Under the pieces are notes generated by a model. It worked only from the letters and a program-made list of their open reading frames with translations. It was not told the origin of the DNA and did not search any database. Shown piece after piece: positions 39-46,151 of a stretch of DNA of 46,166 bases. The stretch lies in the NCBI GenBank assembly GCA_017760785.1, contig GCA_017760785.1_4320.1. One strand, given 5' to 3'. Both the position numbers and the translations under genes were made by a program. Every line of letters begins with the position of its first letter. Positions within the stretch are counted from its first letter, which is position 1. The stretch comes from a phage.

Positions 39-512
39 TTACTCTTTAGCTTTTAGTGCTGCTTCGTTAGCGGCCTTAATCTTGCGCCATGATCGACACT
101 CTGGCTTGGTTGCCAATTCTGCCTCCGTGACAACGCGAAGCATATGACGCTTCTTACACCGTAGTGTAAGAGGCTTTCCGTTACCGTCGAATTGCAGGTC
201 TGGTCGGCAGAATGTGGCGCGAAAACCTTCTCCAGTTCGTTTGTAGTAGTTGTGCGATAGCTGGGCTCCACGTGCGGAAATCATACCACGATTAAACCAC
301 TCCTCTACAGCCTGGGGCGTCACCTTTAGCTGTTTTGCGATATTCGCCTTTGTGCCGAAGAAGTCAAGGAGCATCTCAAGCCGTGCGCGCAACCCAGCTC
401 TTACCTCATCTTTTAAAACGTAGTAGCCTGAGGGTCGTTTTCGTTTCTTTTTGTCTTCAGTCCGGACTGTTCCGTTATTTCCGTTAAGAGTACGCTTATC
501 AACTGCATTCAT
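39..512 (-). CDS. hypothetical Lys/Arg-rich protein, possibly nucleic-acid binding
   Basis: 157-aa ORF; ATG at 512 preceded by GAGGT; divergent from helicase gene. Confidence 0.5.
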   Translation of the reverse strand: MNAVDKRTLNGNNGTVRTEDKKKRKRPSGYYVLKDEVRAGLRARLEMLLDFFGTKANIAKQLKVTPQAVEEWFNRGMISARGAQLSHNYYKRTGEGFRATFCRPDLQFDGNGKPLTLRCKKRHMLRVVTEAELATKPECRSWRKIKAANEAALKAKE

Positions 513-613: not shown

Positions 614-2608
614 ATGTTGCCTATCGAGAAGCTGGTTGCAAACTTCGATAAAGAAAGAATCAAACAGATTCAGAAAGATTATCAGTTTGGTGAGATAACT
701 CCTTACGAATTCCAGTGCGTAACATTTGATGCAATCGGAAAGGCTATTGGGAAGTATGAGTCTCCATTTATCGCTGACCTTTCCGTATCGGCTGGTAAGA
801 CAATCATTCTTGCTATGATAGGAAAGCGCATGGAGCAGCTTGGTCTTCCTTATATGGTTTTATCTCGCCAGTCAGAGATAATCAGCCAGAACTCAGAAGA
901 GCTTCGAAACTTCGGCATCCGTAATAGCGTCTATTGCGCTGGCCTTAACGTTAAATCAGTTTACTATCCAACCATAGTGGCTAGCGAAGGTACGGCAGCC
1001 AACGGCTTATTTAAGGGGCTTGGTGACTATGTTCCGGCGGTTATCGCTATCGATGAATGTCACATGGTGGATCACATGGATATCGTGGAAGCCGAAGAGA
1101 ATGAAGAAACATTTGAGCAAATGAGCACAAAGAAAGGTGAGATGGTATTTAAGGATGGCATAAATACCGGATTGCTTGGCACTGGTCGTGCGCAGTATAC
1201 GCTAATCATTACTGAAATGAAACGCCGTTGTCGTGAGAAGTACGGTCGCGAGCTTAGGATTTTTGGACTAACTGGAAGCCCGTATCGTAACAACGATCAC
1301 ATAGTGGTTAGCAATCCAAATGTTCGTGGATTCTGGCGCAAAACTGTAATACAAGTACCAACCAATTACCTGGTTGATTTGGGATTCGTGGTACCAACTG
1401 TTTACGGTGAAGTTGGCGATTTGGGTTACGACCTTAGCGAATTTGCGCCAGACGGTAGTGATGGTGTTAAAGACTTCAGCAAGAAAGAAATGGATGCGAT
1501 GCAGGAAAAAATTCATCAAAACCAGTCCATGACTCAAAAGATTATACAGTTCGCAGCCAAGTTTATGGAAACTCGTAACGCAGCACTAGTAACTTGCTCA
1601 GGCAAGCGGCATTGCGAGGAAGCAGCCGCGTCGCTTCCTGAGGGTGTAACCTGGGCTATAGTAACTGACTCTACTGGTGAGAAAAAGCGTCGTGAGATTC
1701 TTTCTGACGCAGCTGAAGGTAAGTATAAATTCATCTTTCAGATTGGTTGCCTCACAACCGGCGTGAACGTTCCGCCATGGGACACGTCAATAATTCTTCG
1801 CAAGGTTGGTAGCATCACGTTACTGATTCAGCTTTTGGGGCGAGGTATGCGAATTCTTAAGAAGAAGCATAAGGAAATGGGAATGGTTAAGGATGATCAC
1901 GTGGTGCTGGACTTCGCTGGTACTCTTGATGACATTGCGGAATTGTACTTTGACCCAATCATAGAGGAAGTGCAGGACCAGAAATTTAAGTCTTCACGCA
2001 AAGGCGGCGATAAGCCAAGAATATGTCAGGCCTGTAGTTACGAGAACTCTCCTTTTGCTCGTCGTTGCAATAACGTAATTGACGGGAAGCGTTGTGAGCA
2101 TTTTTTTACATTTCGCTTATGTGAAGATATAGAGGACCCGCAGACAAAAGTTACTATTAAGAAGGGTTGTGGTGAAAAGAATGATATCGCCGCTAAAAAC
2201 TGCCGATGCTGCGGAGAGATGCTTATTGACCCCAACGCTAATCTGACTGGAAAGATGTATCGCCGTGGTGATTACCTTCGCGTTTATGACTTCCAGATTG
2301 GATTGAGTAAGAATCAAACCGGAATTGTTGTTAAGTACAATATCATGGCTCATAACGGAGAGCGGTTTAATGCTTGGGAGTTCTTTAACCCCGAGTCTGA
2401 CCATCGAGTTTGTGGCGTGCTGTGGAAAAACTTTTGCCTTGCTCATATTGAGAATCGCACAGAGGCAGCACGGATTGGTAGGCTGAAAAATGCCAGGATG
2501 ATTATGACTAACGTAGATAAGTTCCGTGCTCCTGTTCAGGTTACTCATCGCAGGAATGGCAAAGGAAAGGACGTGATCGCGTTTAAGAATTTTGGAGAAT
2601 TATTATGA
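614..2608 (+). CDS. SF2 DNA helicase with C-terminal Cys-rich zinc-ribbon region
   Basis: Walker A SAGKT, DECH box, several CxxC pairs near C-terminus; 664 aa. Confidence 0.8.
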   Translation: MLPIEKLVANFDKERIKQIQKDYQFGEITPYEFQCVTFDAIGKAIGKYESPFIADLSVSAGKTIILAMIGKRMEQLGLPYMVLSRQSEIISQNSEELRNFGIRNSVYCAGLNVKSVYYPTIVASEGTAANGLFKGLGDYVPAVIAIDECHMVDHMDIVEAEENEETFEQMSTKKGEMVFKDGINTGLLGTGRAQYTLIITEMKRRCREKYGRELRIFGLTGSPYRNNDHIVVSNPNVRGFWRKTVIQVPTNYLVDLGFVVPTVYGEVGDLGYDLSEFAPDGSDGVKDFSKKEMDAMQEKIHQNQSMTQKIIQFAAKFMETRNAALVTCSGKRHCEEAAASLPEGVTWAIVTDSTGEKKRREILSDAAEGKYKFIFQIGCLTTGVNVPPWDTSIILRKVGSITLLIQLLGRGMRILKKKHKEMGMVKDDHVVLDFAGTLDDIAELYFDPIIEEVQDQKFKSSRKGGDKPRICQACSYENSPFARRCNNVIDGKRCEHFFTFRLCEDIEDPQTKVTIKKGCGEKNDIAAKNCRCCGEMLIDPNANLTGKMYRRGDYLRVYDFQIGLSKNQTGIVVKYNIMAHNGERFNAWEFFNPESDHRVCGVLWKNFCLAHIENRTEAARIGRLKNARMIMTNVDKFRAPVQVTHRRNGKGKDVIAFKNFGELL

Positions 2609-3064: not shown

Positions 3065-3102
3065 CTATTCATCGAAACGAAACGCACAAAGAGAGAAAGA
3101 AA

Positions 3103-15797: not shown

Positions 15798-15827
15798 TAC
15801 CCCATCGAAACGAACGAGGAATCAGAA

Positions 15828-17330: not shown

Positions 17331-17408
17331 GCTCCGCTAGCTCAATGGGATAGCAGCAACGACCTTCTAAGTCGTAGGTTGCTGGTTCGAATCCAGTGCG
17401 GAGCGCCA
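17331..17408 (+). tRNA. tRNA-Arg (anticodon TCT)
   Basis: acceptor stem GCTCCGC/GCGGAGC, anticodon stem ACGAC/GTCGT with loop CTTCTAA, T-loop TTCGAAT, 3' GCCA; D-arm atypical. Confidence 0.7.
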
Positions 17409-25966: not shown

Positions 25967-26617
25967 ATGGCTCACTTATCAAACGGCACCCAGGTGTTCG
26001 TAGAAGGCTCTCGCGGAGACGCAATTGACGTAACTGCAATTTCCAACGCAGCTAACCCAGTTTTAACTGTATCCGACGCGTCTGATTTGGCTGTAGGTGA
26101 TTACCTGCTCTTCACCTCCTCATCCTCTACGTTCCTGGTTGACAAGCAGGTCAGAATTACTGCGCTTACTGGTACGGCGGCTACTGTTGAGGGTATCGAC
26201 ACCTCCAACGCCACTAAGTTCCCATCTAGTTTAACTGGTGAGGTCGTTAAGATCACGTCCTGGTTCGAGATTCCATGTGTTCAGGACGTATCTACGGACG
26301 GCGGCGAGCAGCAATTCGTTAGCCTCCAGTGTCTTTCAGATGACCGCGAGCAGCAGATTCCAACTTATAAATCTGCCGTAACAAATACATTCACCTTTGC
26401 TCACGAGTACACTAACCCGGTCTATCCTGTTCTGCGTAACTACGATGAATCTGGCCGGGTTGTTGCGATTCGTCTGTTCGTACCTCGCGCTCAGGAAATG
26501 CGTTTACAGTCCGGCACTATCTCTTTCAACGACACCCCTACCATTGGTGTTAACGAAATCGAAACAGTATCCATCGCGGTATCTATTCGCGGCCGACTGT
26601 CCTCTGTGGCAGCTTAA
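25967..26617 (+). CDS. major tail protein
   Basis: 216 aa; position before chaperone genes; terminator follows. Confidence 0.6.
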   Translation: MAHLSNGTQVFVEGSRGDAIDVTAISNAANPVLTVSDASDLAVGDYLLFTSSSSTFLVDKQVRITALTGTAATVEGIDTSNATKFPSSLTGEVVKITSWFEIPCVQDVSTDGGEQQFVSLQCLSDDREQQIPTYKSAVTNTFTFAHEYTNPVYPVLRNYDESGRVVAIRLFVPRAQEMRLQSGTISFNDTPTIGVNEIETVSIAVSIRGRLSSVAA

Positions 26618-26629
26618 GTTTAAAGCACA

Positions 26630-26652
26630 AACCCTCTTCGGAGGGTTTTTTA
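26630..26652 (+). terminator. rho-independent terminator after major tail gene
   Basis: CCCTC-TTCG-GAGGG then TTTTTTATT. Confidence 0.75.
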
Positions 26653-26657
26653 TTGCG

Positions 26658-26700
26658 TAGCACTTTTTGATAAATCACTTATTCAACTTTGATGTATAGT
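26658..26700 (+). promoter_or_regulatory. motif-type promoter (TAGCACTTTTTGATAA, TATAGT)
   Basis: drives moron 26734-26982; CATCGAAACGAAA leader. Confidence 0.55.
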
Positions 26701-26733
26701 TAACTCATCGAAACGAAATGAGAGATTAAAGAA

Positions 26734-26982
26734 ATGAATAACGCTAAAAAAATCATCAAGCTCGCTGCGGTTCTGGTTGCTTTTTATGCGGTAGTTCAGA
26801 TTGTCAACCCAACTTGCGAGGCTGATGCAAACAGCAAGGCAAACAAATATAATTTTGAATTTGCTAAGGCTGAGCGAGCATGTCAGGATCTTGTAGGTGG
26901 TAAAGTTGACCAAATCATGAAATATGGCAAAGAGGTTTGTAAGGACTCGGCTGCTAAGATTGCAAAAGAAAACACTAAGTAA
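26734..26982 (+). CDS. small secreted protein (moron)
   Basis: N-terminal signal peptide; own motif promoter 26658-26700; between terminator and chaperone gene. Confidence 0.5.
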   Translation: MNNAKKIIKLAAVLVAFYAVVQIVNPTCEADANSKANKYNFEFAKAERACQDLVGGKVDQIMKYGKEVCKDSAAKIAKENTK

Positions 26983-27020
26983 TAGAATACATACTCACAA
27001 ACAATAAGAGGATTAACAAA

Positions 27021-27335
27021 ATGGCAAAGTTCAAACTTTCACTGGCGGCGATTCCTGATTTTAAGCTGCCTGTAAAATTCAAGCTGGCTAACGACCAGGA
27101 TGTAGAGGTTATCTTTACAGTCAAGCATAAGAAAACATCTGAGCTGCAGGAACTGCTTAGCAAGGAAGACTTGAGCACCAAAGAGCTTATTATGGCAATT
27201 GCTTCTGATTGGGATCTGGAAGAGGAGTACAACGAAGATAACGTTAATGAGTTCTCAGACCTTTTCCCAGCCTCAACCGTTGCACTGACTACCGCTTATA
27301 TGCAGGCTTTGGCGGGCCAGCGAGTAAAAAACTAA
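27021..27335 (+). CDS. tail assembly chaperone, lambda G-like
   Basis: 104-aa acidic ORF before tape measure; slippery site at 3' end. Confidence 0.65.
   Translation: MAKFKLSLAAIPDFKLPVKFKLANDQDVEVIFTVKHKKTSELQELLSKEDLSTKELIMAIASDWDLEEEYNEDNVNEFSDLFPASTVALTTAYMQALAGQRVKN
27326..27332 (+). promoter_or_regulatory. -1 programmed frameshift slippery heptamer A_AAA_AAC
   Basis: last codons of G ORF; -1 frame stays open to 27655. Confidence 0.6.
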
Positions 27336-27343
27336 AAAAGGCG

Positions 27344-27655
27344 GTGTATCTACAGTACCAGTCAGATCCAACAGATGCCGAACTGGAAGCTATTGGGATG
27401 CGCCGCTCTGATTACGAAGATGAAGAGCCTGAAGTTTTACACTTCGACGACAACATGATGAAGGCGTGGGACATTTATTGTTCAATGGCTACACAGTGGA
27501 GATTCGGAGCCAATGGAGCTACAGGCCTAGATTACAACGTGCTAAACTTCCTCTTTAGAGTGTATAATGTTTCTGAAGAAGAATTGGTGCTCAGCGATTT
27601 ACGCATCCTTGAAGCTAAGGCTCTCGAGATGATGGATAACCTGAGAAAAAAATAA
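27344..27655 (+). CDS. T-frame extension of G-T fusion chaperone (-1 frameshift from 27326-27332)
   Basis: -1 frame open from slippery heptamer A_AAA_AAC through 27655. Confidence 0.55.
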   Translation: MYLQYQSDPTDAELEAIGMRRSDYEDEEPEVLHFDDNMMKAWDIYCSMATQWRFGANGATGLDYNVLNFLFRVYNVSEEELVLSDLRILEAKALEMMDNLRKK

Positions 27656-27678
27656 CCCGCTTCGGCGGGTTTTCTATT
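27655..27678 (+). terminator. hairpin with U-tract before tape measure gene
   Basis: CCCGC-TTCG-GCGGG then TTTTCTATT. Confidence 0.55.
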
Positions 27679-27690
27679 ATGGAGGCTTAG

Positions 27691-30669
27691 ATGGCAACAA
27701 ATGAATTAGCCGGAATCACACTAGCCGTAGATGTATCGCAAGTAGACAGGGGTACACAATCCCTACAGAAGTTCAGGCAGGCAAACCAACAGGCTGCTTC
27801 TGGTATTAGTGAGTTCGTTAATGCCGAGCAGGTTGCTAAAAACCAGGCTAGAGATACAGCGCGCGCACTTGCTGAGCAAAAGGCATCTTTGGCTAAATTG
27901 CAAACTGCCATTGATCCAACTGCGGCAAAGTTCCGTAAACTCCAGGAGGCAGCGGTAGGTCTTGATAAGGCTTTCGCGGCTGGCGTAGTTCCTGATGAGG
28001 AGTTTTTCCGGTTAGGTGAGGCACTTGAAACGCAGAACGCAAAACTTGCTCGCTCACGTGCGGCGCTAACTGAAGAAGGAAGAGCGGCGGCACAGTCTGC
28101 TAAGGATAAGGCAAAAGCAAAGGCTGAAGCGGATAGATTCATTGCATCACTTGAGCGACAGGCTCAGGCTGCAACATTGACGCGTGAGGAGTACTTAAAG
28201 TTACAAGCGGCTCAGCTTGGCGTTAGTTCCCAGGCTGCACCCATCATTGACAGAATCGCCGACGCATCACAGAAGGCAAACACCCAGTTAATTGCTCAGA
28301 GTAAGGCTTTTCAGAAATCAGGATTAAGCGCGGGGCAATACAAGAACGCGATTTCTCAGCTGCCAGCGCAGATTACTGATATAGGTACCTCTCTCGCTGG
28401 TGGCATTCCGATTTGGCTTATTGCAATTCAGCAAGGTGGGCAAATTAAGGATGCTTTTGGTGGTATTGGTAACACCTTTAGATTCGCGCTTGCAGCCTTA
28501 AACCCATTCAATGTAGCTGTTGGTGTTTTGGGTGGGGTACTTGTAGCTCTTGGTGTTGGTGCGGCTCAGGCTGAAAGTGAATTCAGAGCATTAAACTCCG
28601 CAATTGCGTTCTCCAACAACTCTACAATCGCATCAATCTCGCAGGTTAGAGAGTTGGTTAGCTCTGTTTCTGATGCAACAGGTGCCACTAGGGGACTTGT
28701 GACTAGTATCGCAACAATCCTTATTGAGCAGGGGAATCTTACGCTAACGCAGATTGACAAGATTACCAAATCAACCGCCAGATGGGCGCAGCTTACCGGA
28801 AAGGATGCAAAGGAGATTACTGGTTACTATAACCAGATTGCAAGCGACCCAATCCAGGGTTTAGTTGATTTGGATAAGCGCTTTAACTTCCTCACGCAGG
28901 GGCAGTTGACGACAATCGAAAACCTGAGAAAGACAAAGGGAGATGTTGAGGCCGTTACCGCCGCAATTGACATTTTCAGCAAGTCGCAGGAAGCCAACCT
29001 TAACGACATAGCAGCGCAGTTAACTCCACTTGAGTTGGCATGGAATGATTTTAGGAAGTACATCTCTGATATCTGGGATGCAATTAGCCGCAGAACGGTA
29101 GGCGCTTTAAACTTGTTTGTTGATGTAATCGCCGGAACAATTGAGCAAATCAAGGTCTTCATTAACCAGGGCGACGTGCTGATTGGTGAATTTGTAGTTA
29201 GCGCAACCCGGGCATTGCAGAACATTCCTGGTCTTGATGGCGTTGGTGATGATGTTATCAAGGGTCAGCAAAAGATTATCGATGCGGCTAAGAAACAAAA
29301 CCTTGAGCTAGAAAAGTCTATCAGGGAGCGAGATTCAAGAATCAGGGAAGGAGAGCTTGGTTACATTACTCGCAGAGAAAATCAGAATACCAATGAGCAG
29401 TCAGGGACTGATGAGGAGTTCTCAAAAAGGAAGAAGGCACTTCAGGATGAGCTTGATGCGATCAAGAAGAACAGGAAAGAAGAAAATGGTAGAGTTAAGG
29501 AGCAAAGAGACCTTACAATTGGTTACGAATCTGGCGTGTTGGCGCTCCAGGCTCAGCTCAAGGTTATTCAGGAAAACAGGGATATCGGCGCAGTAATAAG
29601 CAATGAGCGCAAGCAGTACCTTCAGGAAGAGGCTAAATTCAGGATCCTTGAGCAAAGGCAAATTGATGGCTCAATTACCAAAGAGCAAGCAAGACTTCTC
29701 ATTGAAAAGGATAAAGTTCTTGAGTTAGCTAGACAGAAAGCTGAGCTAGGTGATCAGATTGTTTTGCAGGAGCGCGCCAATAAGCTGGCTGAAGATAACC
29801 GCAAGAAGATTCTTCAGATTAACAACGAAGCAAGTAACATAGATTTGGGTGCTGGCCTGTCTTCTCGGGAACAGCAAAGAGCTAAAGAGATTCAGGCTCT
29901 TCAGTCCAATCAGATTAATGCTGGTGGTTCTGTTGGTGATGTTGATTTTAAGCAGTTGCTGGAGGCAAGGAAGGAGTACTACAAGCAGGAGGATAATCTT
30001 AGGTCTGATTGGCAATCCGGTGTAACATCCACTCTCGCTGACTTGACTGAGAAGTACACTGACTACAACCAGATTGCTAAGGATTTAACTGTTGCAGCAT
30101 TCGACGGGATTACAGACCAGATCACGAATCTTGTGACCACTGGTGAGACTAATTTCAGAGATTTCACAGCAAGCATCCTCAAAATGATTGCGAAGATTGC
30201 AACTCAGTTACTTTTGGTTAAGGCTATAGAATCAACATTAACTAGTTTTGGTGGTGGAGGAGGTAACGCATTTGGCTCTTTTGCGTCTGCTATAGGTTTT
30301 GCTGGCGGTGGCTACACTGGTGATGGCGGCAAGTATCAGCCAGCAGGAACGGTTCATCGTGGAGAGTTTGTATTCACAAAGGAAGCAACAAGCCGAATTG
30401 GTGTTAAGAACCTATACGCACTAATGAAGGGTTATGCAAACGGCGGCGCTGTTGGTGGTCCATCTGGTTATGCAAATGGCGGCTTTGTTTCTGGTGGTAC
30501 AGATGTTAATGTTAGCGGCATCACCGTTAACGTTAATGGTGGCGTTGGTAGCGACCCAGAACAAGCCAAGGCACTGCAAAGCGGAGTCAAGGCAATCGTA
30601 GCGGAAGAGATTGCGCAGTCTTTCCAGCAGGGTGGAAGGGCTTATGCTTACTTGAGAGGTTTTAACTAA
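27691..30669 (+). CDS. tail tape measure protein
   Basis: 992 aa, coiled-coil rich, Gly-rich C-terminus. Confidence 0.85.
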   Translation: MATNELAGITLAVDVSQVDRGTQSLQKFRQANQQAASGISEFVNAEQVAKNQARDTARALAEQKASLAKLQTAIDPTAAKFRKLQEAAVGLDKAFAAGVVPDEEFFRLGEALETQNAKLARSRAALTEEGRAAAQSAKDKAKAKAEADRFIASLERQAQAATLTREEYLKLQAAQLGVSSQAAPIIDRIADASQKANTQLIAQSKAFQKSGLSAGQYKNAISQLPAQITDIGTSLAGGIPIWLIAIQQGGQIKDAFGGIGNTFRFALAALNPFNVAVGVLGGVLVALGVGAAQAESEFRALNSAIAFSNNSTIASISQVRELVSSVSDATGATRGLVTSIATILIEQGNLTLTQIDKITKSTARWAQLTGKDAKEITGYYNQIASDPIQGLVDLDKRFNFLTQGQLTTIENLRKTKGDVEAVTAAIDIFSKSQEANLNDIAAQLTPLELAWNDFRKYISDIWDAISRRTVGALNLFVDVIAGTIEQIKVFINQGDVLIGEFVVSATRALQNIPGLDGVGDDVIKGQQKIIDAAKKQNLELEKSIRERDSRIREGELGYITRRENQNTNEQSGTDEEFSKRKKALQDELDAIKKNRKEENGRVKEQRDLTIGYESGVLALQAQLKVIQENRDIGAVISNERKQYLQEEAKFRILEQRQIDGSITKEQARLLIEKDKVLELARQKAELGDQIVLQERANKLAEDNRKKILQINNEASNIDLGAGLSSREQQRAKEIQALQSNQINAGGSVGDVDFKQLLEARKEYYKQEDNLRSDWQSGVTSTLADLTEKYTDYNQIAKDLTVAAFDGITDQITNLVTTGETNFRDFTASILKMIAKIATQLLLVKAIESTLTSFGGGGGNAFGSFASAIGFAGGGYTGDGGKYQPAGTVHRGEFVFTKEATSRIGVKNLYALMKGYANGGAVGGPSGYANGGFVSGGTDVNVSGITVNVNGGVGSDPEQAKALQSGVKAIVAEEIAQSFQQGGRAYAYLRGFN

Positions 30670-30740: not shown

Positions 30741-31229
30741 ATGAACTGGAATGATATTTTTGATTATAGAGATGGCGTTCTTTATTGGAAGATAAAGCCA
30801 GGAAAGAACATGCTGCTTGGATCGAGGGCCGGAACAATTAGAAAGAATGGTTATCTTTCTGTTGGTTTTGACAGAAGTGAATTTTACATTCACAGGATAG
30901 TTTGGGAGATGCATAATGGCTCAATACCAGATCTAATGCAGATAGATCATATAGACCAGATAAGGACAAACAATAAGATTGAAAACTTGAGACTTGTAAC
31001 TAGCGCAGAAAATAACAGAAATCAAACAATGCAGTATAATAACACTAGCGGATACACTGGAGTTACATGGAGGAAGGATAGATGCAAATGGTCTGCAAGA
31101 ATCGAGTTTGAAGGCAAGGTTAGATATCTTGGTAACTTTTCAAAATTCGATGAAGCAGTGGCAGCAAGAAAATTAGCAGAGGATATGTTTGGATTTCACG
31201 AAAATCATGGCAAGAGGAAAATAAAATGA
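30741..31229 (+). CDS. HNH homing endonuclease with AP2-like domain
   Basis: N-terminal YWKIK, HID motif, C-terminal GYTGV...W AP2-like; own promoter. Confidence 0.75.
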   Translation: MNWNDIFDYRDGVLYWKIKPGKNMLLGSRAGTIRKNGYLSVGFDRSEFYIHRIVWEMHNGSIPDLMQIDHIDQIRTNNKIENLRLVTSAENNRNQTMQYNNTSGYTGVTWRKDRCKWSARIEFEGKVRYLGNFSKFDEAVAARKLAEDMFGFHENHGKRKIK

Positions 31230-31612: not shown

Positions 31613-32368
31613 ATGTTAAGTCCAAAGTTTGAAAATCAGTTGCAAAGCCTTTTCCCAGGCGAGATTGTGACTCTAATTCAGGTTGACGGAACGTCGTTTG
31701 GTTCTCGCGTTTACAATTTCCACAATGAGAACATTTCATACACACCTGAAGAAATCATGCTAGCACAAATGAATGGCGAGCCACTACCAGAGAAAACCAT
31801 CACCTTCCGTGGTGAAGAGTACGGCCCAAGACCGTTCGGAATCTCTGGCATAAATATGACTTCTGACGGCAAAGCCAACAAAGTGACGCTAACAGTATCA
31901 AACGTAGACCAGCGAATTAGCGCATTGATTCGAACATACAACGGACTTGTTAAAGCTAAGGTTACCATCTGGATTACTACGCGAGATAACATCAATGAAG
32001 ACGGAAGCATTGCTGATGGGGATTATCGCAGATTCGTTTACTTCATTGAGCGGCCGAAGCAGGTTGATTATAAAACAGCGTCATTTGAGCTAAGCTCACC
32101 TATGGATATGGACGGCATTTATATTCCAGCGAGACTTGTTCAGTCTGTTTGCTATTTCGCCTCCAGGGGCTGGTATCGCAGCGGCAATGGCTGCACCTAT
32201 GCTGGAAATCGATACTTCGATAAAGATGATAACCAGGTAGATGACCCTTCATTAGACTTCTGTGCCGGAACGGTCAACAGTTGCAAGATTAGGTTTGGTG
32301 AGAATAATCAGTTAGATTTTGGCGGCTGTGCGGCAGCTAGCCTTCAGGCTAAAGCAAATCAATCATAG
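31613..32368 (+). CDS. minor tail protein, lambda gpL-like
   Basis: C-terminal Cys cluster; ATG 31613 with GGAGA SD. Confidence 0.7.
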   Translation: MLSPKFENQLQSLFPGEIVTLIQVDGTSFGSRVYNFHNENISYTPEEIMLAQMNGEPLPEKTITFRGEEYGPRPFGISGINMTSDGKANKVTLTVSNVDQRISALIRTYNGLVKAKVTIWITTRDNINEDGSIADGDYRRFVYFIERPKQVDYKTASFELSSPMDMDGIYIPARLVQSVCYFASRGWYRSGNGCTYAGNRYFDKDDNQVDDPSLDFCAGTVNSCKIRFGENNQLDFGGCAAASLQAKANQS

Positions 32369-32436: not shown

Positions 32437-32919
32437 ATGAATTGTCATGATTACTTTAGGTATGAAGATGGTAAAATCTACTGGAAGATAAAACCAAAAA
32501 GAAAGCCTTTCCTTTTTGGTTGCGAAGCTGGTAGCGGTAATCCTGGTGAGTATAAGACCGTTAAGATTGATGGATACAGATACAGGTGTCACAGGGTAAT
32601 ATATGAGATGTTTAATGGCAGTATTAAAGATGGCATGGTTATTGATCACATAAATGGCCTGAAAGATGACAATCGAATTGAAAATCTAAGATGTGTAACT
32701 GTCTCAATTAACGCAAAGAATCAAAAAGTTAATGCTAAAAACAATTCTGGAATTAATGGTGTAAGACTTTACAAGAGGACTGGTAAGTGGATTGCTTACA
32801 GCAAGTCTTTCGGTAAGTGCGTTCATCTTGGATATTTTTATTCTATTGAATCCGCAATTGACGCGAGGGACTTATATAATTCAACAAATGGTTTCACAGA
32901 GAGGCATGGGAAATGTTAA
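32437..32919 (+). CDS. HNH homing endonuclease with AP2-like domain
   Basis: paralogue of 30741-31229; own promoter. Confidence 0.75.
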   Translation: MNCHDYFRYEDGKIYWKIKPKRKPFLFGCEAGSGNPGEYKTVKIDGYRYRCHRVIYEMFNGSIKDGMVIDHINGLKDDNRIENLRCVTVSINAKNQKVNAKNNSGINGVRLYKRTGKWIAYSKSFGKCVHLGYFYSIESAIDARDLYNSTNGFTERHGKC

Positions 32920-37722: not shown

Positions 37723-38679
37723 TTAGTACATGTTTGGTATGTATGGCAGCTGCATTGATATGTTTGTATTAAATGGAAATTGTGCGCCAGTCTGTGTTGA
37801 ATAGTTTCCAATTACACTACCAAGCTCCGACCTGACAGATCCATTAGACATTACGACACCTTTGTATCTAAGGTTGTTATATCCGCCAGTTACGCGAGTG
37901 TAAGCGCCAGTCCTAAGTATCGGGAAGTATCCATTACCTATCGACTGAAATGAGTTTGATATCTGAATGAATCCACCCAACACAAAAGGCCTTTTAACAG
38001 TAGAGAATACAACCTGGCCGGCCGGGTTTACTATTGTTATGCCTGGCCCGCCAACTGGTGCGGTGTTGTTGAATATAACCAAATCAACGACAACTGATGC
38101 CGAAACGTTATCTATGCCGCCGTATGTGTTATCCCTGCACAGAAGCCTGGTTCCATCAAACTCGAGCGTAACATTTGGATTACTCCATCTACCAAAAGGG
38201 ATTCCAGTTATTGGTAGTGTATAGCTGCCGTTTACAGTAACCCTTCCAACAAACTGTGCTGTCATCAGCCTTGAATTTGTCGTTATAGATACAAAGTCAG
38301 TTGAGTTAGCAACCAGTATACCTTGCCCAGTCGATGCTCCAGTTATCTCGAAGCAGTTGCCAGAGAAGTTTATCAGCCTTCCATTTGCGCCGTTAAAGTT
38401 GCTAATGTTTATTCTTCCCTGCGTATTTGATACCCTCTGGAATCCATTCATATAATAAACTTCCGGTATAACATCGAAATCGATAACTTCAACCGCCTTT
38501 ATTGGTAAAGCGAATGCTGTTGATCCATTAGTTTGGTTAAGCCCAAATGTCAACCCCCCAGATTCAGAAGCAAATTTTGTAGTTGGAATAGAACCGGTCA
38601 CATTAGGTGCTCTTAATCCAGCTGTTATATGCATTGCAGGTCTACCATCATTTAGATCGATTAAAATACCCTGAGGCAT
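37723..38679 (-). CDS. hypothetical Asn/Gly/Thr-rich protein, coupled to Cor-like gene
   Basis: 318 aa from ATG 38679 (TAATG overlap with upstream stop). Confidence 0.5.
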   Translation of the reverse strand: MPQGILIDLNDGRPAMHITAGLRAPNVTGSIPTTKFASESGGLTFGLNQTNGSTAFALPIKAVEVIDFDVIPEVYYMNGFQRVSNTQGRINISNFNGANGRLINFSGNCFEITGASTGQGILVANSTDFVSITTNSRLMTAQFVGRVTVNGSYTLPITGIPFGRWSNPNVTLEFDGTRLLCRDNTYGGIDNVSASVVVDLVIFNNTAPVGGPGITIVNPAGQVVFSTVKRPFVLGGFIQISNSFQSIGNGYFPILRTGAYTRVTGGYNNLRYKGVVMSNGSVRSELGSVIGNYSTQTGAQFPFNTNISMQLPYIPNMY

Positions 38680-38921
38680 TATTTCCACTCCTTAGAACCA
38701 TGGTCTTTAACTGAGCCACCGTAACCGCCACCAGTAGCCTTAATTCCATCGTAGCGCACGTCAACTTCTCCAGCCGGTACAACCACACCACTTTTCCATT
38801 TAGCCACGCACACGCCATTTGCTTGCGTTGCACACCAGCCATCCGTACGTGGACCAGAAGAGCAACCTACCATCATGATTGCTGCTGCGGCGATGATTGC
38901 TGATTTGATGAAGTTAGTCAT
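38679..38921 (-). CDS. small lipoprotein, Cor-like superinfection-exclusion candidate
   Basis: 80 aa from ATG 38921 (GAGGTA SD); signal peptide with MVGC lipobox-like site. Confidence 0.5.
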
Positions 38922-44752: not shown

Positions 44753-45675
44753 TAGTTTAGCAAGTCTTTGGCTTTGTACACTTTCTTGCGTATTCCTGTT
44801 TTAAATGACTTCCCGTCATTAGGTATCACCACATCAACATTGCGATCATCAGCGGCAATAAGTATATCAGTATCACAATAACGGCAAGCAACCCTAAACT
44901 TCCTAGACTTGTCTCTGTGCATAACCATTTCCATATTGTAACAGGAGAAAGCCACAAACACCTCGCGACCGCCAGTAGCCAGATGAATACGTACGCCATC
45001 AATAAAATTATCAACAACATAAGTGTAACCATCAACCTGCCTAGAGCCAATGACAGCAACAGAATCACGAGTGTAATCACCAGCAAGGAACTTAACATTT
45101 GAATCTCCATCAATAAACATTAAGTTGCAGAAATCATCACCAAGCCCATCCTCGTAAACCATCGAGCACGGTACGGCATGAATCATTGAGCCATCCTTAG
45201 CTATGCCAACATCGAATCCATCATCAAGATAAATACCCTCGTATGTTGTGAGTGGGCTTGATTCAACTCTCTCGGTACGCTGCATGACCTCAAGCACTTT
45301 TTCATGATCTACCTGGGCGCCCATTTTGTAACGCTGAGTTCTTGATGCCTGCTTGTTTGCCTTAACTATAACCTCAATTGGTGTTAAGTTCAGCCAGTCA
45401 CCAAGCAAATTTACTGAATCGGCGAAGGACAATCCAGTGCACTTCATGACCCATCCTATACCGGAGTCACTTCCGCATTTCGAACAAACTGCCGCGCCAT
45501 TTCCTTTTTCACTGCCTATTTCGTCGGTAAACCTGAATCTGTCAGTGCCAAAGCAGTATGGGCATGGTCCGTGCTTCTTACTTAGGTGTCTATCATTCCA
45601 ACCAAGTTCCTTTGCATAAAATGATTTCCACAATCCGGCCATCTTAGGTATAACTTCATTCTTATCGTAATTCAT
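44752..45675 (-). CDS. DNA primase-like protein with zinc-binding motif
   Basis: CPYC...CSKC zinc-ribbon-like motif followed by acidic core; 307 aa. Confidence 0.55.
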   Translation of the reverse strand: MNYDKNEVIPKMAGLWKSFYAKELGWNDRHLSKKHGPCPYCFGTDRFRFTDEIGSEKGNGAAVCSKCGSDSGIGWVMKCTGLSFADSVNLLGDWLNLTPIEVIVKANKQASRTQRYKMGAQVDHEKVLEVMQRTERVESSPLTTYEGIYLDDGFDVGIAKDGSMIHAVPCSMVYEDGLGDDFCNLMFIDGDSNVKFLAGDYTRDSVAVIGSRQVDGYTYVVDNFIDGVRIHLATGGREVFVAFSCYNMEMVMHRDKSRKFRVACRYCDTDILIAADDRNVDVVIPNDGKSFKTGIRKKVYKAKDLLN

Positions 45676-46151
45676 TTGCTTAACCCGTGATTTTCGTGAA
45701 AGTTGTATTTTCTCTCTGCTTCAATTCTTACTTTATACGCCTGCTCTGGAGTATCGAAGTTCCCAAGGTGTAGCTGCTTACCGTCAACCTTGATGTGAGC
45801 CTTAAATTTTCCGTGATTTAGCTTTGTCACTCCACAATAACCAGTTGTTGATAAAACGCTAAGCTTGCAATTTCTTGAGTTACCTTGATTTGTTGTTACT
45901 CTTAGGTTTTCTATTCTGTTATCTAATTTGTTATGGTTTATATGATCAATGTAGTCGCCATTTTGAAGTTCTCCATTAAACATCTCCCACACAACTCTAT
46001 GTACATAAGTCCTAAAGCCATTAACAGACACTTTGTAATAGCCAGATGTAGATAGTGAGTTGCACTCATCGCCAACCTTAACACGTCTTGCAGTGCTAAT
46101 CTTCCAATGCAATTTGCCATCTACATAGTAAAAATAATCATGCCAGTTCAT
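45672..46151 (-). CDS. HNH homing endonuclease with AP2-like domain
   Basis: third paralogue (YWKI, HINH, GYCGV motifs); overlaps primase start. Confidence 0.7.
   Translation of the reverse strand: MNWHDYFYYVDGKLHWKISTARRVKVGDECNSLSTSGYYKVSVNGFRTYVHRVVWEMFNGELQNGDYIDHINHNKLDNRIENLRVTTNQGNSRNCKLSVLSTTGYCGVTKLNHGKFKAHIKVDGKQLHLGNFDTPEQAYKVRIEAERKYNFHENHGLSK

What the first reader, a model, noticed from the sequence alone, without database searches (positions are those of the whole stretch)
26658..26982. Independently transcribed secreted-protein gene between major tail and chaperone genes
After the major-tail terminator (26630-26652) comes a complete motif promoter with leader (26658-26715) and an 82-aa ORF with an N-terminal signal peptide (MNNAKKIIKLAAVLVAFYAVVQIVNPTCEA...) and four Cys. 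The chaperone gene begins only after that. A secreted small protein with an early-type promoter inside the late structural operon is a moron, likely acting on the host envelope or in superinfection exclusion.
Basis: partly seen in the sequence, partly recalled or inferred. Interest (0 to 1): 0.45.

Follow-up and report, generated by a model that had tools for sequence, protein, structure and literature searches.

The report
Swappable exported-protein gene in phage tail operon
Between the tail-tube and tail-chaperone genes of this T1-like coliphage sits a real but uncharacterised small gene for an exported protein, in a slot where related phages carry other envelope proteins or nothing; it is a fairly ordinary phage accessory gene, and the claim that it is an independently transcribed "early" gene is not supported.

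Summary
A strong terminator lies at 26629-26654. A recurrent promoter-like motif with its leader lies at 26658-26718. An 82-codon ORF at 26734-26982 has a Sec-type N-terminus and lies before the chaperone gene at 27021. The protein has three Cys, not four, and only Cys50 and Cys69 are conserved.

The window is an Rtp-like Drexlerviridae (Braunvirinae) coliphage. The ORF is under purifying selection (dN/dS about 0.14-0.3). It is an orphan family (phrog_22925) found at this position in 82 phage records. T1, Rogue1, Klebsiella and Warwickvirus relatives have no gene here.

In four Rtp-type phages the same terminator, promoter and near-identical leader drive an unrelated lipoprotein, rtp34. CY1-type phages add a 46-aa hydrophobic mini-ORF. 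The site is therefore an exchangeable slot for envelope-targeted cargo.

The promoter motif is the T1-family "direct repeat" element, already described, with 18 copies in the window. It also heads the lysis, receptor-binding and tail-fibre genes, so "early-type" is unsupported. No terminator separates the ORF from the chaperone, so it is not a self-contained moron.

The phage already has an Rtp45-type receptor-blocking lipoprotein, and carriers of the ORF use different receptors. My best guess is receptor-independent exclusion after adsorption (about 0.3, inferred). Interest is modest.

The parts
25967..26617 (+). Major tail (tube) protein gene, the upstream neighbour
   Evidence: PF08813 Phage_tail_3 E=5.8e-65, phrog_584; homologous to T1 gp41 by the OzMSK annotation
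26629..26654 (+). Intrinsic terminator after the tube gene (stem 26629-26648, then a T-run)
   Evidence: Terminator scan; RNA fold -14.1 kcal/mol, z=-2.8; conserved in all relatives, and annotated with ARNold in CEB_EC3a
26658..26674 (+). T1-family 'direct repeat' box TAGCACTTTTTGATAAA (imperfect palindrome of the TAGCA-N5-TGCTA type), centred about 42 nt upstream of the -10-like hexamer
   Evidence: 18 copies in the window against 0.15 expected; consensus aaATAGCACnnnTTGnTAAAA described for TLS, T1, Rtp and Rogue1 (PMC11447400); present at this locus in all Braunvirinae sampled, with a 1-nt spacer deletion in OzMSK
26695..26700 (+). -10-like hexamer TATAGT, 20 nt downstream of the box
   Evidence: Same arrangement at the other copies of the motif; not validated experimentally
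26706..26733 (+). Conserved A/C-rich leader CATCGAAACGAAA followed by the RBS (GAGAG) and spacer
   Evidence: Exact copies at 3070+, 11045-, 38955-, and near-exact copies at 15803+ and 40185+; near-identical leader and identical RBS in Rtp in front of a different gene; no Rfam family
26734..26982 (+). 82-aa ORF: predicted Sec signal peptide (residues 1-30, cleavage predicted after Ala30) plus a 52-aa basic, helical mature domain with conserved Cys50 and Cys69
   Evidence: phrog_22925, unknown function, E=1.6e-50; 82 phage records, all at this position; dN/dS 0.14-0.3; alignments A1 and A2; AF2 predicts all-helical
27021..27655 (+). Tail assembly chaperone genes (G-like 27021..27335; T-like part 27344..27655), immediately downstream with no intervening terminator
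   Evidence: PF08748 E=1.6e-32 and DUF1799 E=1.2e-15; frameshift product annotated in OzMSK and T1; no terminator found between 26982 and 27021
27691..30669 (+). Tape measure protein gene, the distal member of the same putative transcription unit
   Evidence: PF06791 and PF09718

Best explanation
The 82-codon ORF is a genuine accessory gene. It occupies an exchangeable cargo slot at the head of the chaperone/tape-measure transcription unit of Rtp-like (Braunvirinae) T1-family phages.

Expression. Transcription that reads through, or restarts after, the tube-gene terminator produces an mRNA that starts near 26706. It would start at the family-specific promoter (TAGCAC-N3-TTGNTAAA box, 20 nt, TATAGT) and carry the conserved A/C-rich leader. 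The ORF is translated first, and the transcript then continues into the chaperone genes.

Product. The protein is exported by the Sec pathway. Signal peptidase I probably cuts after Ala30. This would release a 52-residue, 5.8-kDa, basic, helical periplasmic protein in which Cys50 and Cys69 can be oxidised.

Function. It acts on the envelope of the infected cell, independently of which outer-membrane receptor the phage uses. The most likely role is to block a step after adsorption for superinfecting phages: tail penetration or DNA ejection across the periplasm and inner membrane. This would complement the receptor-blocking Rtp45-type lipoprotein that the phage also encodes.

What is shown and what is inferred.
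- Shown by sequence and comparison: coding status, slot exchange, signal-peptide features, receptor independence, promoter-motif recurrence, and absence of its own terminator.
- Inferred: export and cleavage (about 0.8), promoter activity (about 0.6), and exclusion as the function (about 0.3).

The confidence given (0.4) is for the statement as a whole. The 'accessory exported envelope protein in an exchangeable slot' part alone would rate about 0.8.
For: - Real gene: dN/dS 0.14-0.3 in six comparisons. 82 phage records and 37 metagenomic clusters conserve it.
- Accessory slot: every Braunvirinae locus with tube-protein identity >=82% has box + leader + cargo. Loci at 49-63% identity have a 69-113 nt gap with no ORF (annotations).
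- Cargo exchange: Rtp has the same terminator and box and a near-identical leader with identical RBS, but encodes rtp34, a 128-aa protein with lipobox LLAGC and no similarity to the 82-aa ORF (BLASTP E=5). rtp34 fills the slot in Rtp, RobRod40, MM01 and AugustePiccard.
- Further cargo: CY1, TR2, TR3 and Rao1 add a 46-aa hydrophobic ORF in the slot. All cargoes are envelope-targeted.
- Export signal: a Lys-rich n-region, a 15-residue h-region, invariant Asn25-Pro26, and small residues at -3 and -1. These are kept even in the 52%-identical subfamily.
- Cys pair: two invariant Cys in the mature part, consistent with an oxidising compartment.
- Receptor independence: IME253 and JulesPiccard keep the gene at about 90% identity but have different post-gpJ recognition modules with a Cor-type lipoprotein. 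BASEL reports LptD for JeanPiccard and cites FepA for IME253 (PMC8594841).
- Receptor blocking is already provided by 38679..38921(-), PF24052 E=2e-37. Its mechanism was solved for Rtp45 (bioRxiv 10.1101/2025.07.07.663478).
- The mature domain diverges faster than the N-terminus (44% against 70-74% identity), as expected for a protein in an interaction arms race.
- Precedents: HK97 gp15, a small membrane protein encoded beside the chaperone and tape-measure genes, blocks DNA entry without touching receptors (PMC3594210). T4 Spackle is a small, helical, disulfide-bonded periplasmic exclusion protein of a virulent phage (PMC7677548).
Against: - There is no functional or homology evidence for exclusion. 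No Pfam, NCBIfam, PADLOC or PDB match was found. An exhaustive HMMER search of 1.84 billion representatives found only the family's own cluster.
- Cargo type does not co-vary with the chaperone or tape measure. ACG-M12 has a 98.6% identical tape-measure N-terminus but a divergent cargo, and Rtp has a 93% identical chaperone but a lipoprotein. This argues against a lock-and-key relation with the phage's own ejection machinery.
- No lysozyme-type target is evident in the tail. The only such domain is NlpC/P60 in the gpK homologue.
- The N-terminal hydrophobic segment is more conserved than signal peptides usually are, including a Tyr and a Gln. It could instead be an uncleaved membrane anchor.
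- Structure models are of low information content: pLDDT 58 for the full length, and a single helix for the mature part.
- Promoter activity and timing are untested, and a sigma-70 scan does not detect the element.
Confidence: 0.4

Rival explanations
1. One reading: a self-contained moron with an early promoter, transcribed independently of the late tail operon, whose secreted product excludes superinfecting phages or remodels the envelope early in infection.
For: - A promoter-like motif lies directly upstream and a terminator directly before it.
- Within the 20-kb structural block the motif occurs only in front of inserted genes: this ORF and two HNH endonucleases.
- Most other copies head replication and small-gene clusters.
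- Known exclusion proteins of virulent phages, such as T4 Spackle, are early (PMC7677548).
Against: - The same motif heads the lysis region, the exclusion-lipoprotein/receptor-binding operon and the lateral-fibre gene.
- No terminator follows the ORF.
- Relatives that lack the ORF still have a promoter-like sequence, or an inverted copy of the box, in the same gap.
- No timing data exist for this phage group.
Confidence: 0.2
2. An envelope factor related to lysis. The exported or membrane-anchored protein would tune lysis timing or completeness, for example as an antiholin-like partner of the pinholin, or as a modulator of the SAR endolysin or the unimolecular spanin. Being expressed with the tail genes, it would accumulate late.
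For: - The architecture (N-terminal hydrophobic segment plus a short helical periplasmic domain with Cys) resembles periplasmic lysis regulators and i-spanin periplasmic domains (general knowledge of T4 RI and lambda Rz, from memory).
- Co-transcription with late tail genes is plausible.
- The phage uses a pinholin, SAR endolysin and u-spanin system, by homology with the OzMSK annotation.
Against: - It is not linked to the lysis cassette at 7.3-8.5 kb.
- T1, Rogue1 and other phages with the same type of lysis cassette lack it.
- It is replaceable by an unrelated lipoprotein.
- It has no sequence similarity to any lysis protein family.
Confidence: 0.15
3. Host takeover or counter-defence in the envelope. 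The periplasmic protein would inhibit a host periplasmic or membrane function, such as a protease, an envelope-stress sensor, outer-membrane vesicle formation or a membrane-associated defence system, and would not act on incoming phages.
For: - It is an accessory gene with a rapidly diverging mature domain.
- It is independent of receptor type.
- Cargo is exchanged between lineages.
- The slot holds diverse envelope proteins.
Against: - No similarity to any known anti-defence or inhibitor family was found.
- Most known defence systems act in the cytoplasm.
- There is no host-range correlation to support this reading.
Confidence: 0.15
4. A structural or assembly role. The hydrophobic N-terminus would be an uncleaved membrane anchor or a virion-internal segment, and the protein would assist tape-measure or tail-tip assembly, or be ejected with the DNA.
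For: - It sits among tail genes and is co-transcribed with the chaperone and tape measure.
- The N-terminal segment is unusually well conserved.
- It is universal among close relatives.
Against: - Absent from T1, Rogue1, Webervirus and Warwickvirus, which have homologous tails.
- Replaced by a lipoprotein in Rtp-type phages whose chaperone is 93% identical.
- The signal-peptide layout, with a conserved small-x-small site, points to export.
Confidence: 0.08
5. A spurious ORF in a long regulatory spacer.
For: The ORF is small, has no known domain, and is annotated only as 'hypothetical'.
Against: - dN/dS 0.14-0.3 with many synonymous changes.
- Length and frame are conserved in 82 genomes and in a 52%-identical subfamily.
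- It has a good RBS.
- It has its own PHROG family.
Confidence: 0.02

Closest known systems
HK97 gp15 moron (Cumby et al. 2012; reviewed in PMC3594210)
   Same: A small gene for an envelope-inserted protein, placed inside a siphophage tail operon next to the chaperone and tape-measure genes. It is absent from related phages and differs in GC from its neighbours. Its product blocks superinfection without touching the outer-membrane receptor.
   Different: - HK97 is temperate, and gp15 is expressed from the prophage with its own promoter and terminator. Here the phage is virulent and no terminator follows the ORF.
- gp15 lies between the chaperone and the tape measure; this ORF lies between the tube and the chaperone.
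- gp15 is described as inserting into the inner membrane (PMC3594210), whereas this protein looks like a cleaved secreted protein.
- No sequence relationship: from memory gp15 is YebO-like, and no YebO hit appeared in the Pfam scan at E<=1.
- Function is not demonstrated here.
T4 Spackle (gp61.3), PMC7677548
   Same: A product of a virulent phage: a cleaved periplasmic localisation signal, a small alpha-helical mature protein with one disulfide, acting in the periplasm of the infected cell.
   Different: - The mature Spackle is 75 aa and folds as a helical bundle that inhibits the gp5 tail lysozyme. Here the mature part is 52 aa, and no tail lysozyme exists in the phage, only an NlpC/P60 domain in the gpK homologue.
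- No sequence similarity to any PDB chain.
- Spackle is a demonstrated early gene; timing here is unknown.
Rtp45 / Cor / Llp receptor-blocking exclusion lipoproteins
   Same: Small exported proteins of T1-like and T5-like phages with an intramolecular disulfide, acting from the periplasmic side. In this window the Rtp45-type gene is expressed behind the same type of promoter and leader (38955-).
   Different: - Those proteins are lipoproteins with a lipobox and are encoded next to the receptor-binding gene, with which they co-vary.
- The 82-aa protein has no lipobox (NPTC or NPTG), does not match PF24052, is encoded in the tail-tube/chaperone gap, and is kept across phages with different receptors.
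rtp34 of phage Rtp (uncharacterised lipoprotein)
   Same: Occupies exactly the same slot, behind the same terminator and box and a near-identical leader with identical RBS, and is also envelope-targeted.
   Different: It is an unrelated sequence of 128 aa, is lipidated (LLAGC), and is present in only four phages. Its function is likewise unknown.
T1-family 'direct repeat' regulatory element (PMC11447400; from memory, also the inverted repeats assigned to regulator Rtp52 in Wietzorrek et al. 2006, J Bacteriol 188:1419)
   Same: The box at 26658-26674 fits the published consensus aaATAGCACnnnTTGnTAAAA. [quoted passage not shown]
   Different: Its published role is undecided (stoperator, enhancer or UP-like). 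This analysis adds that the box is followed 19-20 nt later by a TATAGT-like hexamer and a conserved A/C-rich leader, and that T1 and atuna carry it inverted at this same locus.

Membership tests
Moron (Hendrix/Juhala sense: an independent inserted transcription unit) | Present at a position where related genomes have nothing | tested here: met
   Gap of 69-113 nt without an ORF in Rogue1, T1, Sweeny, atuna and 19 further loci, against about 400 nt with the ORF in all Braunvirinae
Moron (Hendrix/Juhala sense: an independent inserted transcription unit) | Own promoter | tested here: inconclusive
   A family-specific promoter-like motif lies directly upstream and recurs 18 times. It is not detected by the sigma-70 scan and has never been tested. 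Relatives without the ORF have promoter-like sequence in the same gap, so it may belong to the chaperone unit.
Moron (Hendrix/Juhala sense: an independent inserted transcription unit) | Own terminator downstream of the gene | tested here: not met
   No terminator-like hairpin between 26982 and 27021. The next one is at 27654-27671, after the chaperone genes.
Moron (Hendrix/Juhala sense: an independent inserted transcription unit) | Base composition differing from the flanking genes | tested here: met
   GC 40.2% against 50.1% for the tube gene, 44.4% for the chaperone and 43.9% for the genome. The difference is modest.
Sec-exported protein with a signal peptidase I site | Positively charged n-region, a hydrophobic h-region of 7-15 residues, and small neutral residues at -3 and -1 | tested here: met
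   K5, K6, K9; L10-V24; P26; C(G)-E-A before D31. Conserved as G-G-A, G-S-A or S-G-A in subfamily B. Rule-based reading only; SignalP is not available here.
Sec-exported protein with a signal peptidase I site | Demonstrated export and cleavage | not testable with these tools
   Needs PhoA fusion, fractionation, or N-terminal sequencing
Phage exclusion lipoproteins (Rtp45 / PF24052, Cor, Llp) | Lipobox [LVI][ASTVI][GAS]C at the end of the signal peptide | tested here: not met
   The sequence is V-N-P-T-C in the window and N-P-T-G in relatives. The window's true member, 38679..38921(-), has M-V-G-C.
Phage exclusion lipoproteins (Rtp45 / PF24052, Cor, Llp) | Profile match, and linkage to the receptor-binding gene | tested here: not met
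   No PF24052 hit for the 82-aa protein at E<=1, against E=2e-37 for 38679..38921(-). The gene lies 11 kb from the receptor-binding gene and is independent of its type.
T4 Spackle-like periplasmic lysozyme inhibitor | Sequence or structure similarity to Spackle, and a tail lysozyme target in the phage | tested here: not met
   A profile search of PDB sequences gives no hit better than E=1.3, to an unrelated protein. No lysozyme domain in the tail proteins. A fold comparison was not meaningful because the model is a single helix.
HK97 gp15 / YebO-like inner-membrane exclusion proteins | Sequence relationship to gp15 / YebO | tested here: not met
   No YebO-family or other Pfam hit at E<=1. A direct pairwise comparison with the gp15 sequence was not done.
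HK97 gp15 / YebO-like inner-membrane exclusion proteins | Blocks DNA entry depending on the incoming tail, not on the receptor | not testable with these tools
   Requires plating-efficiency and DNA-entry assays
T1-family direct-repeat regulatory element (PMC11447400) | Match to aaATAGCACnnnTTGnTAAAA, intergenic, oriented with transcription, about 76 nt before the start codon | tested here: met
   26658-26674 has 0 mismatches to the core, is on the + strand, and starts 76 nt before the ATG at 26734 (consensus)

The most novel reading that the evidence does not exclude
The tube/chaperone gap of Rtp-like phages is a dedicated, promoter-equipped 'envelope cargo' slot. Unrelated exported proteins are swapped through it: the 82-aa secreted family in two divergent subfamilies, the rtp34 lipoprotein, and a 46-aa membrane mini-protein. 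The 82-aa family would be a new, receptor-independent periplasmic exclusion factor of virulent siphophages that blocks tail penetration or DNA ejection, forming a second layer beside the Rtp45/Cor receptor blockers.
Probability: 0.25. Interest if true: 0.5.

Novelty: new member of a known kind. Interest (0 to 1): 0.3.

Why it matters
If the product is a post-adsorption exclusion factor, it would add a small, tractable protein to the few known periplasmic or inner-membrane blockers of siphophage DNA entry. It could then be used to probe how lambda-like tails of T1-family phages cross the periplasm, which is still poorly understood.

The slot itself has the same promoter and near-identical leader in front of interchangeable cargo. 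That makes it a convenient natural site for engineering these phages, which are common laboratory and fermentation contaminants and also therapy candidates.

The analysis also refines the description of the T1-family 'direct repeat': box, 19-20 nt, TATAGT, then a conserved leader. This makes its role as a promoter or operator directly testable.

None of this overturns current understanding. Accessory envelope genes inside tail operons are a familiar theme.

Tried and rejected
- Sigma-54 promoter. The box resembles TGGCAC-N5-TTGC, but the GG-to-GC spacing is 2 nt too short and most copies have AG. Rejected from the sequence.
- The box as a -35 element. TTGNTA lies 22 nt from TATAGT, too far for sigma-70, and no conserved -35 sits at 16-18 nt.
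- Lipoprotein reading of the window-specific Cys28. There is no lipobox, and relatives have Gly at that position.
- Distant homologues. The word-indexed search found only proteins of at least 82% identity. The exhaustive profile search found a single cluster. PDB, Pfam, NCBIfam and PADLOC gave nothing.
- Structure. The full-length AF2 model had pLDDT 58. The mature domain alone came out as one long helix at pLDDT 77. No fold search was run, because a single helix gives meaningless matches.
- Co-variation of cargo with the chaperone or tape measure, as a sign of a specific ejection-machinery target. Not found.
- A known RNA element in the conserved leader. No Rfam match near significance.
- Literature. 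No transcriptome, virion proteomics or functional study of this gene or of rtp34 was found. The Rtp genome paper is not held, so its statement about Rtp52 and the inverted repeats is cited from memory only.
- The antisense ORF 26683..26913(-). Treated as spurious, because the substitution pattern fits the + frame.
Full report
**What the window is.** The 1.8 kb around the finding is 88-92% identical to Drexlerviridae coliphages of the subfamily Braunvirinae: Veterinaerplatzvirus T145P1, UALMA_PCEc3, Msk/OzMSK, Guelphvirus CEB_EC3a, IME253 and JeanPiccard. Gene order matches the fully annotated OzMSK genome. The flanking genes are the major tail tube protein (25967..26617, PF08813), the two tail-assembly chaperone reading frames (27021..27335, PF08748; 27344..27655, DUF1799) and the tape measure (27691..30669).

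**Checking the observation.**
- An 8-bp GC-rich hairpin at 26629-26648 is followed by a T-run. It folds at -14.1 kcal/mol, z = -2.8.
- Next come TAGCACTTTTTGATAAA (26658-26674), 20 nt, TATAGT (26695-26700), 5 nt, CATCGAAACGAAA (26706-26718), an RBS, and the ATG at 26734.
- This is not a chance resemblance. The upstream box occurs 18 times in the window at one mismatch or fewer, against 0.15 expected.
- The TATAGT-plus-leader segment occurs four times at three mismatches or fewer, against none expected.
- The leader core occurs nine times at two mismatches or fewer, against 1.6 expected.
- A generic sigma-70 consensus scan does not report a promoter here.
- The ORF is 82 codons. It has three cysteines (28, 50, 69), not four.
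- In all but the window's own copy, position 28 is Gly or Ser, or Arg in ACG-M12. Only Cys50 and Cys69 are invariant.

**The ORF is a real gene.**
- It is annotated as a hypothetical protein at the same place in every relative examined.
- It forms its own PHROG, phrog_22925, of unknown function.
- It is found in 82 phage records and in 37 unnamed clusters on phage-sized contigs.
- Pairwise dN/dS is 0.14-0.3, with plentiful synonymous change.
- A second subfamily about 52% identical (CY1, ES, IMM-001, TR2/TR3) and an N-terminally variant form in ACG-M12 keep the length, the hydrophobic N-terminus, the Asn-Pro-Thr motif and the two cysteines.
- An exhaustive HMMER search of 1.84 billion representatives finds only the family's own cluster.
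- Pfam, NCBIfam, PADLOC and PDB sequence searches are empty. It is an orphan family confined to this phage clade.

**The product looks exported.**
- The N-terminus has three lysines (5, 6, 9), a 15-residue hydrophobic core (10-24), invariant Asn25-Pro26, and small residues at -3 and -1 before Asp31 (C/G-E-A). The divergent subfamily has G-G-A, G-S-A or S-G-A instead.
- This is the classical signal peptidase I layout. It is not a lipobox.
- The predicted mature protein is 52 residues, 5.8 kDa, with pI about 9.
- AlphaFold predicts only helices: three helices including the signal peptide at pLDDT 58, and a single long helix at pLDDT 77 for the mature part alone. I did not run fold searches on such models.
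- One caveat: between subfamilies the first 27 residues are more conserved (70-74%) than the rest (44%), with lower synonymous divergence as well. This could reflect recombination within the gene, or a functional membrane segment, so an uncleaved anchor is not excluded.

**The slot.** This is the most informative result. I compared the tube-to-chaperone interval in 40 loci.
- Every phage whose tube protein is at least 82% identical has the terminator, the box in forward orientation, the -10-like hexamer, the leader and a cargo gene.
- Phages at 54-63% identity (Rogue1-like, and metagenomic contigs at 54-57% identity; the Klebsiella phage Sweeny at 49% is similar) have a bare 69-76 nt gap. It holds a terminator and, in Rogue1, an annotated extended -10 promoter with an A/C-rich leader directly before the chaperone.
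- T1, atuna and three viral contigs have a gap of about 100 nt with no ORF. They carry the same T-type box in inverted orientation, just before the chaperone RBS.
- In Rtp the upstream sequence matches the window closely, and the leader from CGAAACGAAA through the RBS to the ATG is identical, but the gene is rtp34. That is a 128-aa protein with the lipobox LLAG-C and no similarity to the 82-aa protein.
- rtp34 fills the slot in Rtp, RobRod40, MM01 and AugustePiccard.
- CY1, TR2, TR3 and Rao1 carry an additional 46-codon, strongly hydrophobic ORF between the leader and their 82-aa gene. It is unannotated in three of the four records. The same mini-ORF sits elsewhere in phiA2-1.

So the site is a fixed expression platform through which unrelated envelope-targeted genes have been exchanged. 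The ORF's GC content is 40%, against 50% for the tube gene.

**The promoter claim.**
- The box is the element described for phage TLS, with consensus aaATAGCACnnnTTGnTAAAA. TLS has 21 copies, oriented with transcription and about 76 nt before start codons. The element is also present in T1, Rtp and Rogue1. The authors leave its role open between stoperator, enhancer and UP-like element (PMC11447400).
- From memory, the Rtp genome paper (Wietzorrek et al. 2006) assigned such inverted repeats to the putative regulator Rtp52. That paper is not in the library.
- The window encodes the homologous Cro-like regulator at 39..512 on the minus strand (phrog_2856).
- In the window the box is an imperfect palindrome (TAGCA-N5-TGCTA) centred about 42 nt upstream of the TATAGT hexamer. 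The TTGNTA part is 22 nt from the hexamer, too far to serve as a -35.
- The 18 copies head a wide range of units:
  - the helicase;
  - several clusters of small genes;
  - the phosphatase genes;
  - the region leading into the lysis cassette;
  - the ERF recombinase gene in the recombination cluster;
  - the exclusion-lipoprotein/receptor-binding operon;
  - the lateral-fibre gene;
  - two HNH endonuclease genes inserted in the tail operon.
- The motif therefore marks phage transcription units of every functional class and cannot be called early.
- Within the 20-kb structural block it occurs only in front of inserted genes, which does associate it with accessory cargo.
- No terminator lies between the ORF's stop and the chaperone start 38 nt later. 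Relatives lacking the ORF have regulatory sequence at the same place. The simplest reading is that the ORF is the first cistron of the chaperone/tape-measure unit, not a self-contained moron.
- I found no transcriptomic or proteomic data for this phage group.

**What it probably does.**
- Receptor-blocking exclusion is already encoded elsewhere. ORF 38679..38921 (minus strand) is a lipoprotein (MVG-C) of the Rtp45 family (PF24052, E = 2e-37), directly upstream of the DUF6453 receptor-binding protein. A cryo-EM structure shows how Rtp45 blocks LptD (bioRxiv 10.1101/2025.07.07.663478).
- The 82-aa gene is retained at about 90% identity in IME253 and JulesPiccard, whose recognition modules behind gpJ are entirely different and include a Cor-type lipoprotein. 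BASEL reports LptD for JeanPiccard and cites FepA for IME253 (PMC8594841).
- Many phages with the LptD-type receptor-binding protein lack the gene. The function is therefore independent of the receptor.
- The cargo type does not track the chaperone or tape-measure alleles.
- The tail is lambda-like (H-M-L-K-I-J) with no lysozyme; it has only an NlpC/P60 domain in the K homologue.
- The closest functional precedents are HK97 gp15 and T4 Spackle. HK97 gp15 is a small membrane protein encoded next to the chaperone and tape-measure genes, and it blocks DNA entry without affecting receptors (PMC3594210). T4 Spackle is a small, helical, disulfide-bonded periplasmic exclusion protein of a virulent phage (PMC7677548).
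- On this basis I favour a post-adsorption, receptor-independent exclusion or protection role, at roughly 0.3 probability. Lysis-related (0.15), host-takeover (0.15) and structural (0.08) roles are the alternatives. The spurious-ORF reading is excluded by the substitution pattern.

**Verdict.** The gene is a new, uncharacterised member of a familiar class: accessory envelope genes lodged in siphophage tail operons. The added value of this analysis is the exchangeable-cargo slot and the sharper description of the T1-family promoter/operator element. Interest is modest (0.3).

Noticed in passing
window 30741..31229 (+), 32437..32919 (+), 45672..46151 (-): Three HNH_3 homing-endonuclease genes (PF13392, E=1e-18 to 1e-21). 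The first two are inserted in the tail operon, after the tape measure and between the gpL and gpK homologues. Each sits behind its own copy of the direct-repeat promoter (30670, 32366). Neither insertion is present in OzMSK.
   Followed up: partly
window, 18 sites (526, 3022, 3897, 5961, 7048, 10502-, 11093-, 12492-, 14146, 14878, 15755, 16531, 26658, 30670, 32366, 39003-, 42015, 44689): A genome-wide regulon-like motif: palindromic box TAGCA-N5-TGCTA, 19-20 nt, a TATAGT-like hexamer, then an A/C-rich leader. The Cro-like regulator gene (39..512, minus strand; T1 gp23 / Rtp52 homologue) lies next to copy 526 and is the obvious candidate binder. The geometry (centre near -42, no -35) would fit a class II-type activator site or an operator.
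   Followed up: partly
L010 (T1) 2473-2585; L012 (atuna) 2467-2565; L032, L035, L036: In T1, atuna and three viral contigs the same T-type box (TAGCACTTTTTGTTAAA) lies in inverted orientation in the tube/chaperone gap, immediately before the chaperone RBS, with no cargo gene. This suggests the box at this locus predates the cargo, or was inverted when the cargo was gained or lost.
   Followed up: no
window 38679..38921 (-) and 37723..38688 (-): An Rtp45-family superinfection-exclusion lipoprotein (PF24052) is co-oriented with and upstream of the DUF6453 (LptD-type) receptor-binding protein. It is driven by a promoter and leader of exactly the same subtype as the 82-aa ORF (CATCGAAACGAAA).
   Followed up: partly
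L005 (CY1) 2342..2482; also TR2, TR3, Rao1; phiA2-1 at 32135..32272: A 46-codon ORF that is unannotated in three of the four slot records (MILIGMLTAFFYYATGLTFWVSLGAAIGTYFVSALLALIVRALRNR; phrog_16572), with two hydrophobic stretches. It is inserted between the leader and the 82-aa homologue, and the same mini-gene sits at a different genomic position in phiA2-1.
   Followed up: partly
L002 (OzMSK) about 2255-2275: The OzMSK/Msk copy of the box at this locus has a 1-nt deletion in its spacer (TAGCACTTTTGCTAAA). It is a natural variant that could show whether half-site spacing matters.
   Followed up: no
window 26960..26988: A sigma-70-like TTGCAA-17-TAGAAT (9 of 12) lies inside the 3' end of the ORF, just upstream of the chaperone gene. 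The equivalent place is annotated 'promoter (phiSITE)' in CEB_EC3a. The scan as a whole found no more sites than chance (7 against 9.9 expected).
   Followed up: no
phage records PP134917.1 (Pseudomonas phage PsgS01F), MG065688.1 (Campylobacter phage A110b); protein P0036: Records attributed to Pseudomonas syringae and Campylobacter jejuni phages, and a protein attributed to Nitratidesulfovibrio liaohensis on a 46.7-kb contig, are about 90% identical to these coliphages. PsgS01F has the same length as the coliphage UALMA_PCEc3. These are probably contaminants or mislabelled hosts.
   Followed up: no
window 17331..17408 (+): A tRNA-Arg (anticodon TCT) lies between the small-gene cluster and the small terminase gene. 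It is also annotated in OzMSK.
   Followed up: no
window 26815-26817 (codon 28): The window's protein has a private Gly28-to-Cys change at position -3 of the predicted cleavage site. Other sequences aligned have Gly, Ser or (in ACG-M12) Arg. It is compatible with cleavage but adds a third cysteine to the precursor.
   Followed up: partly
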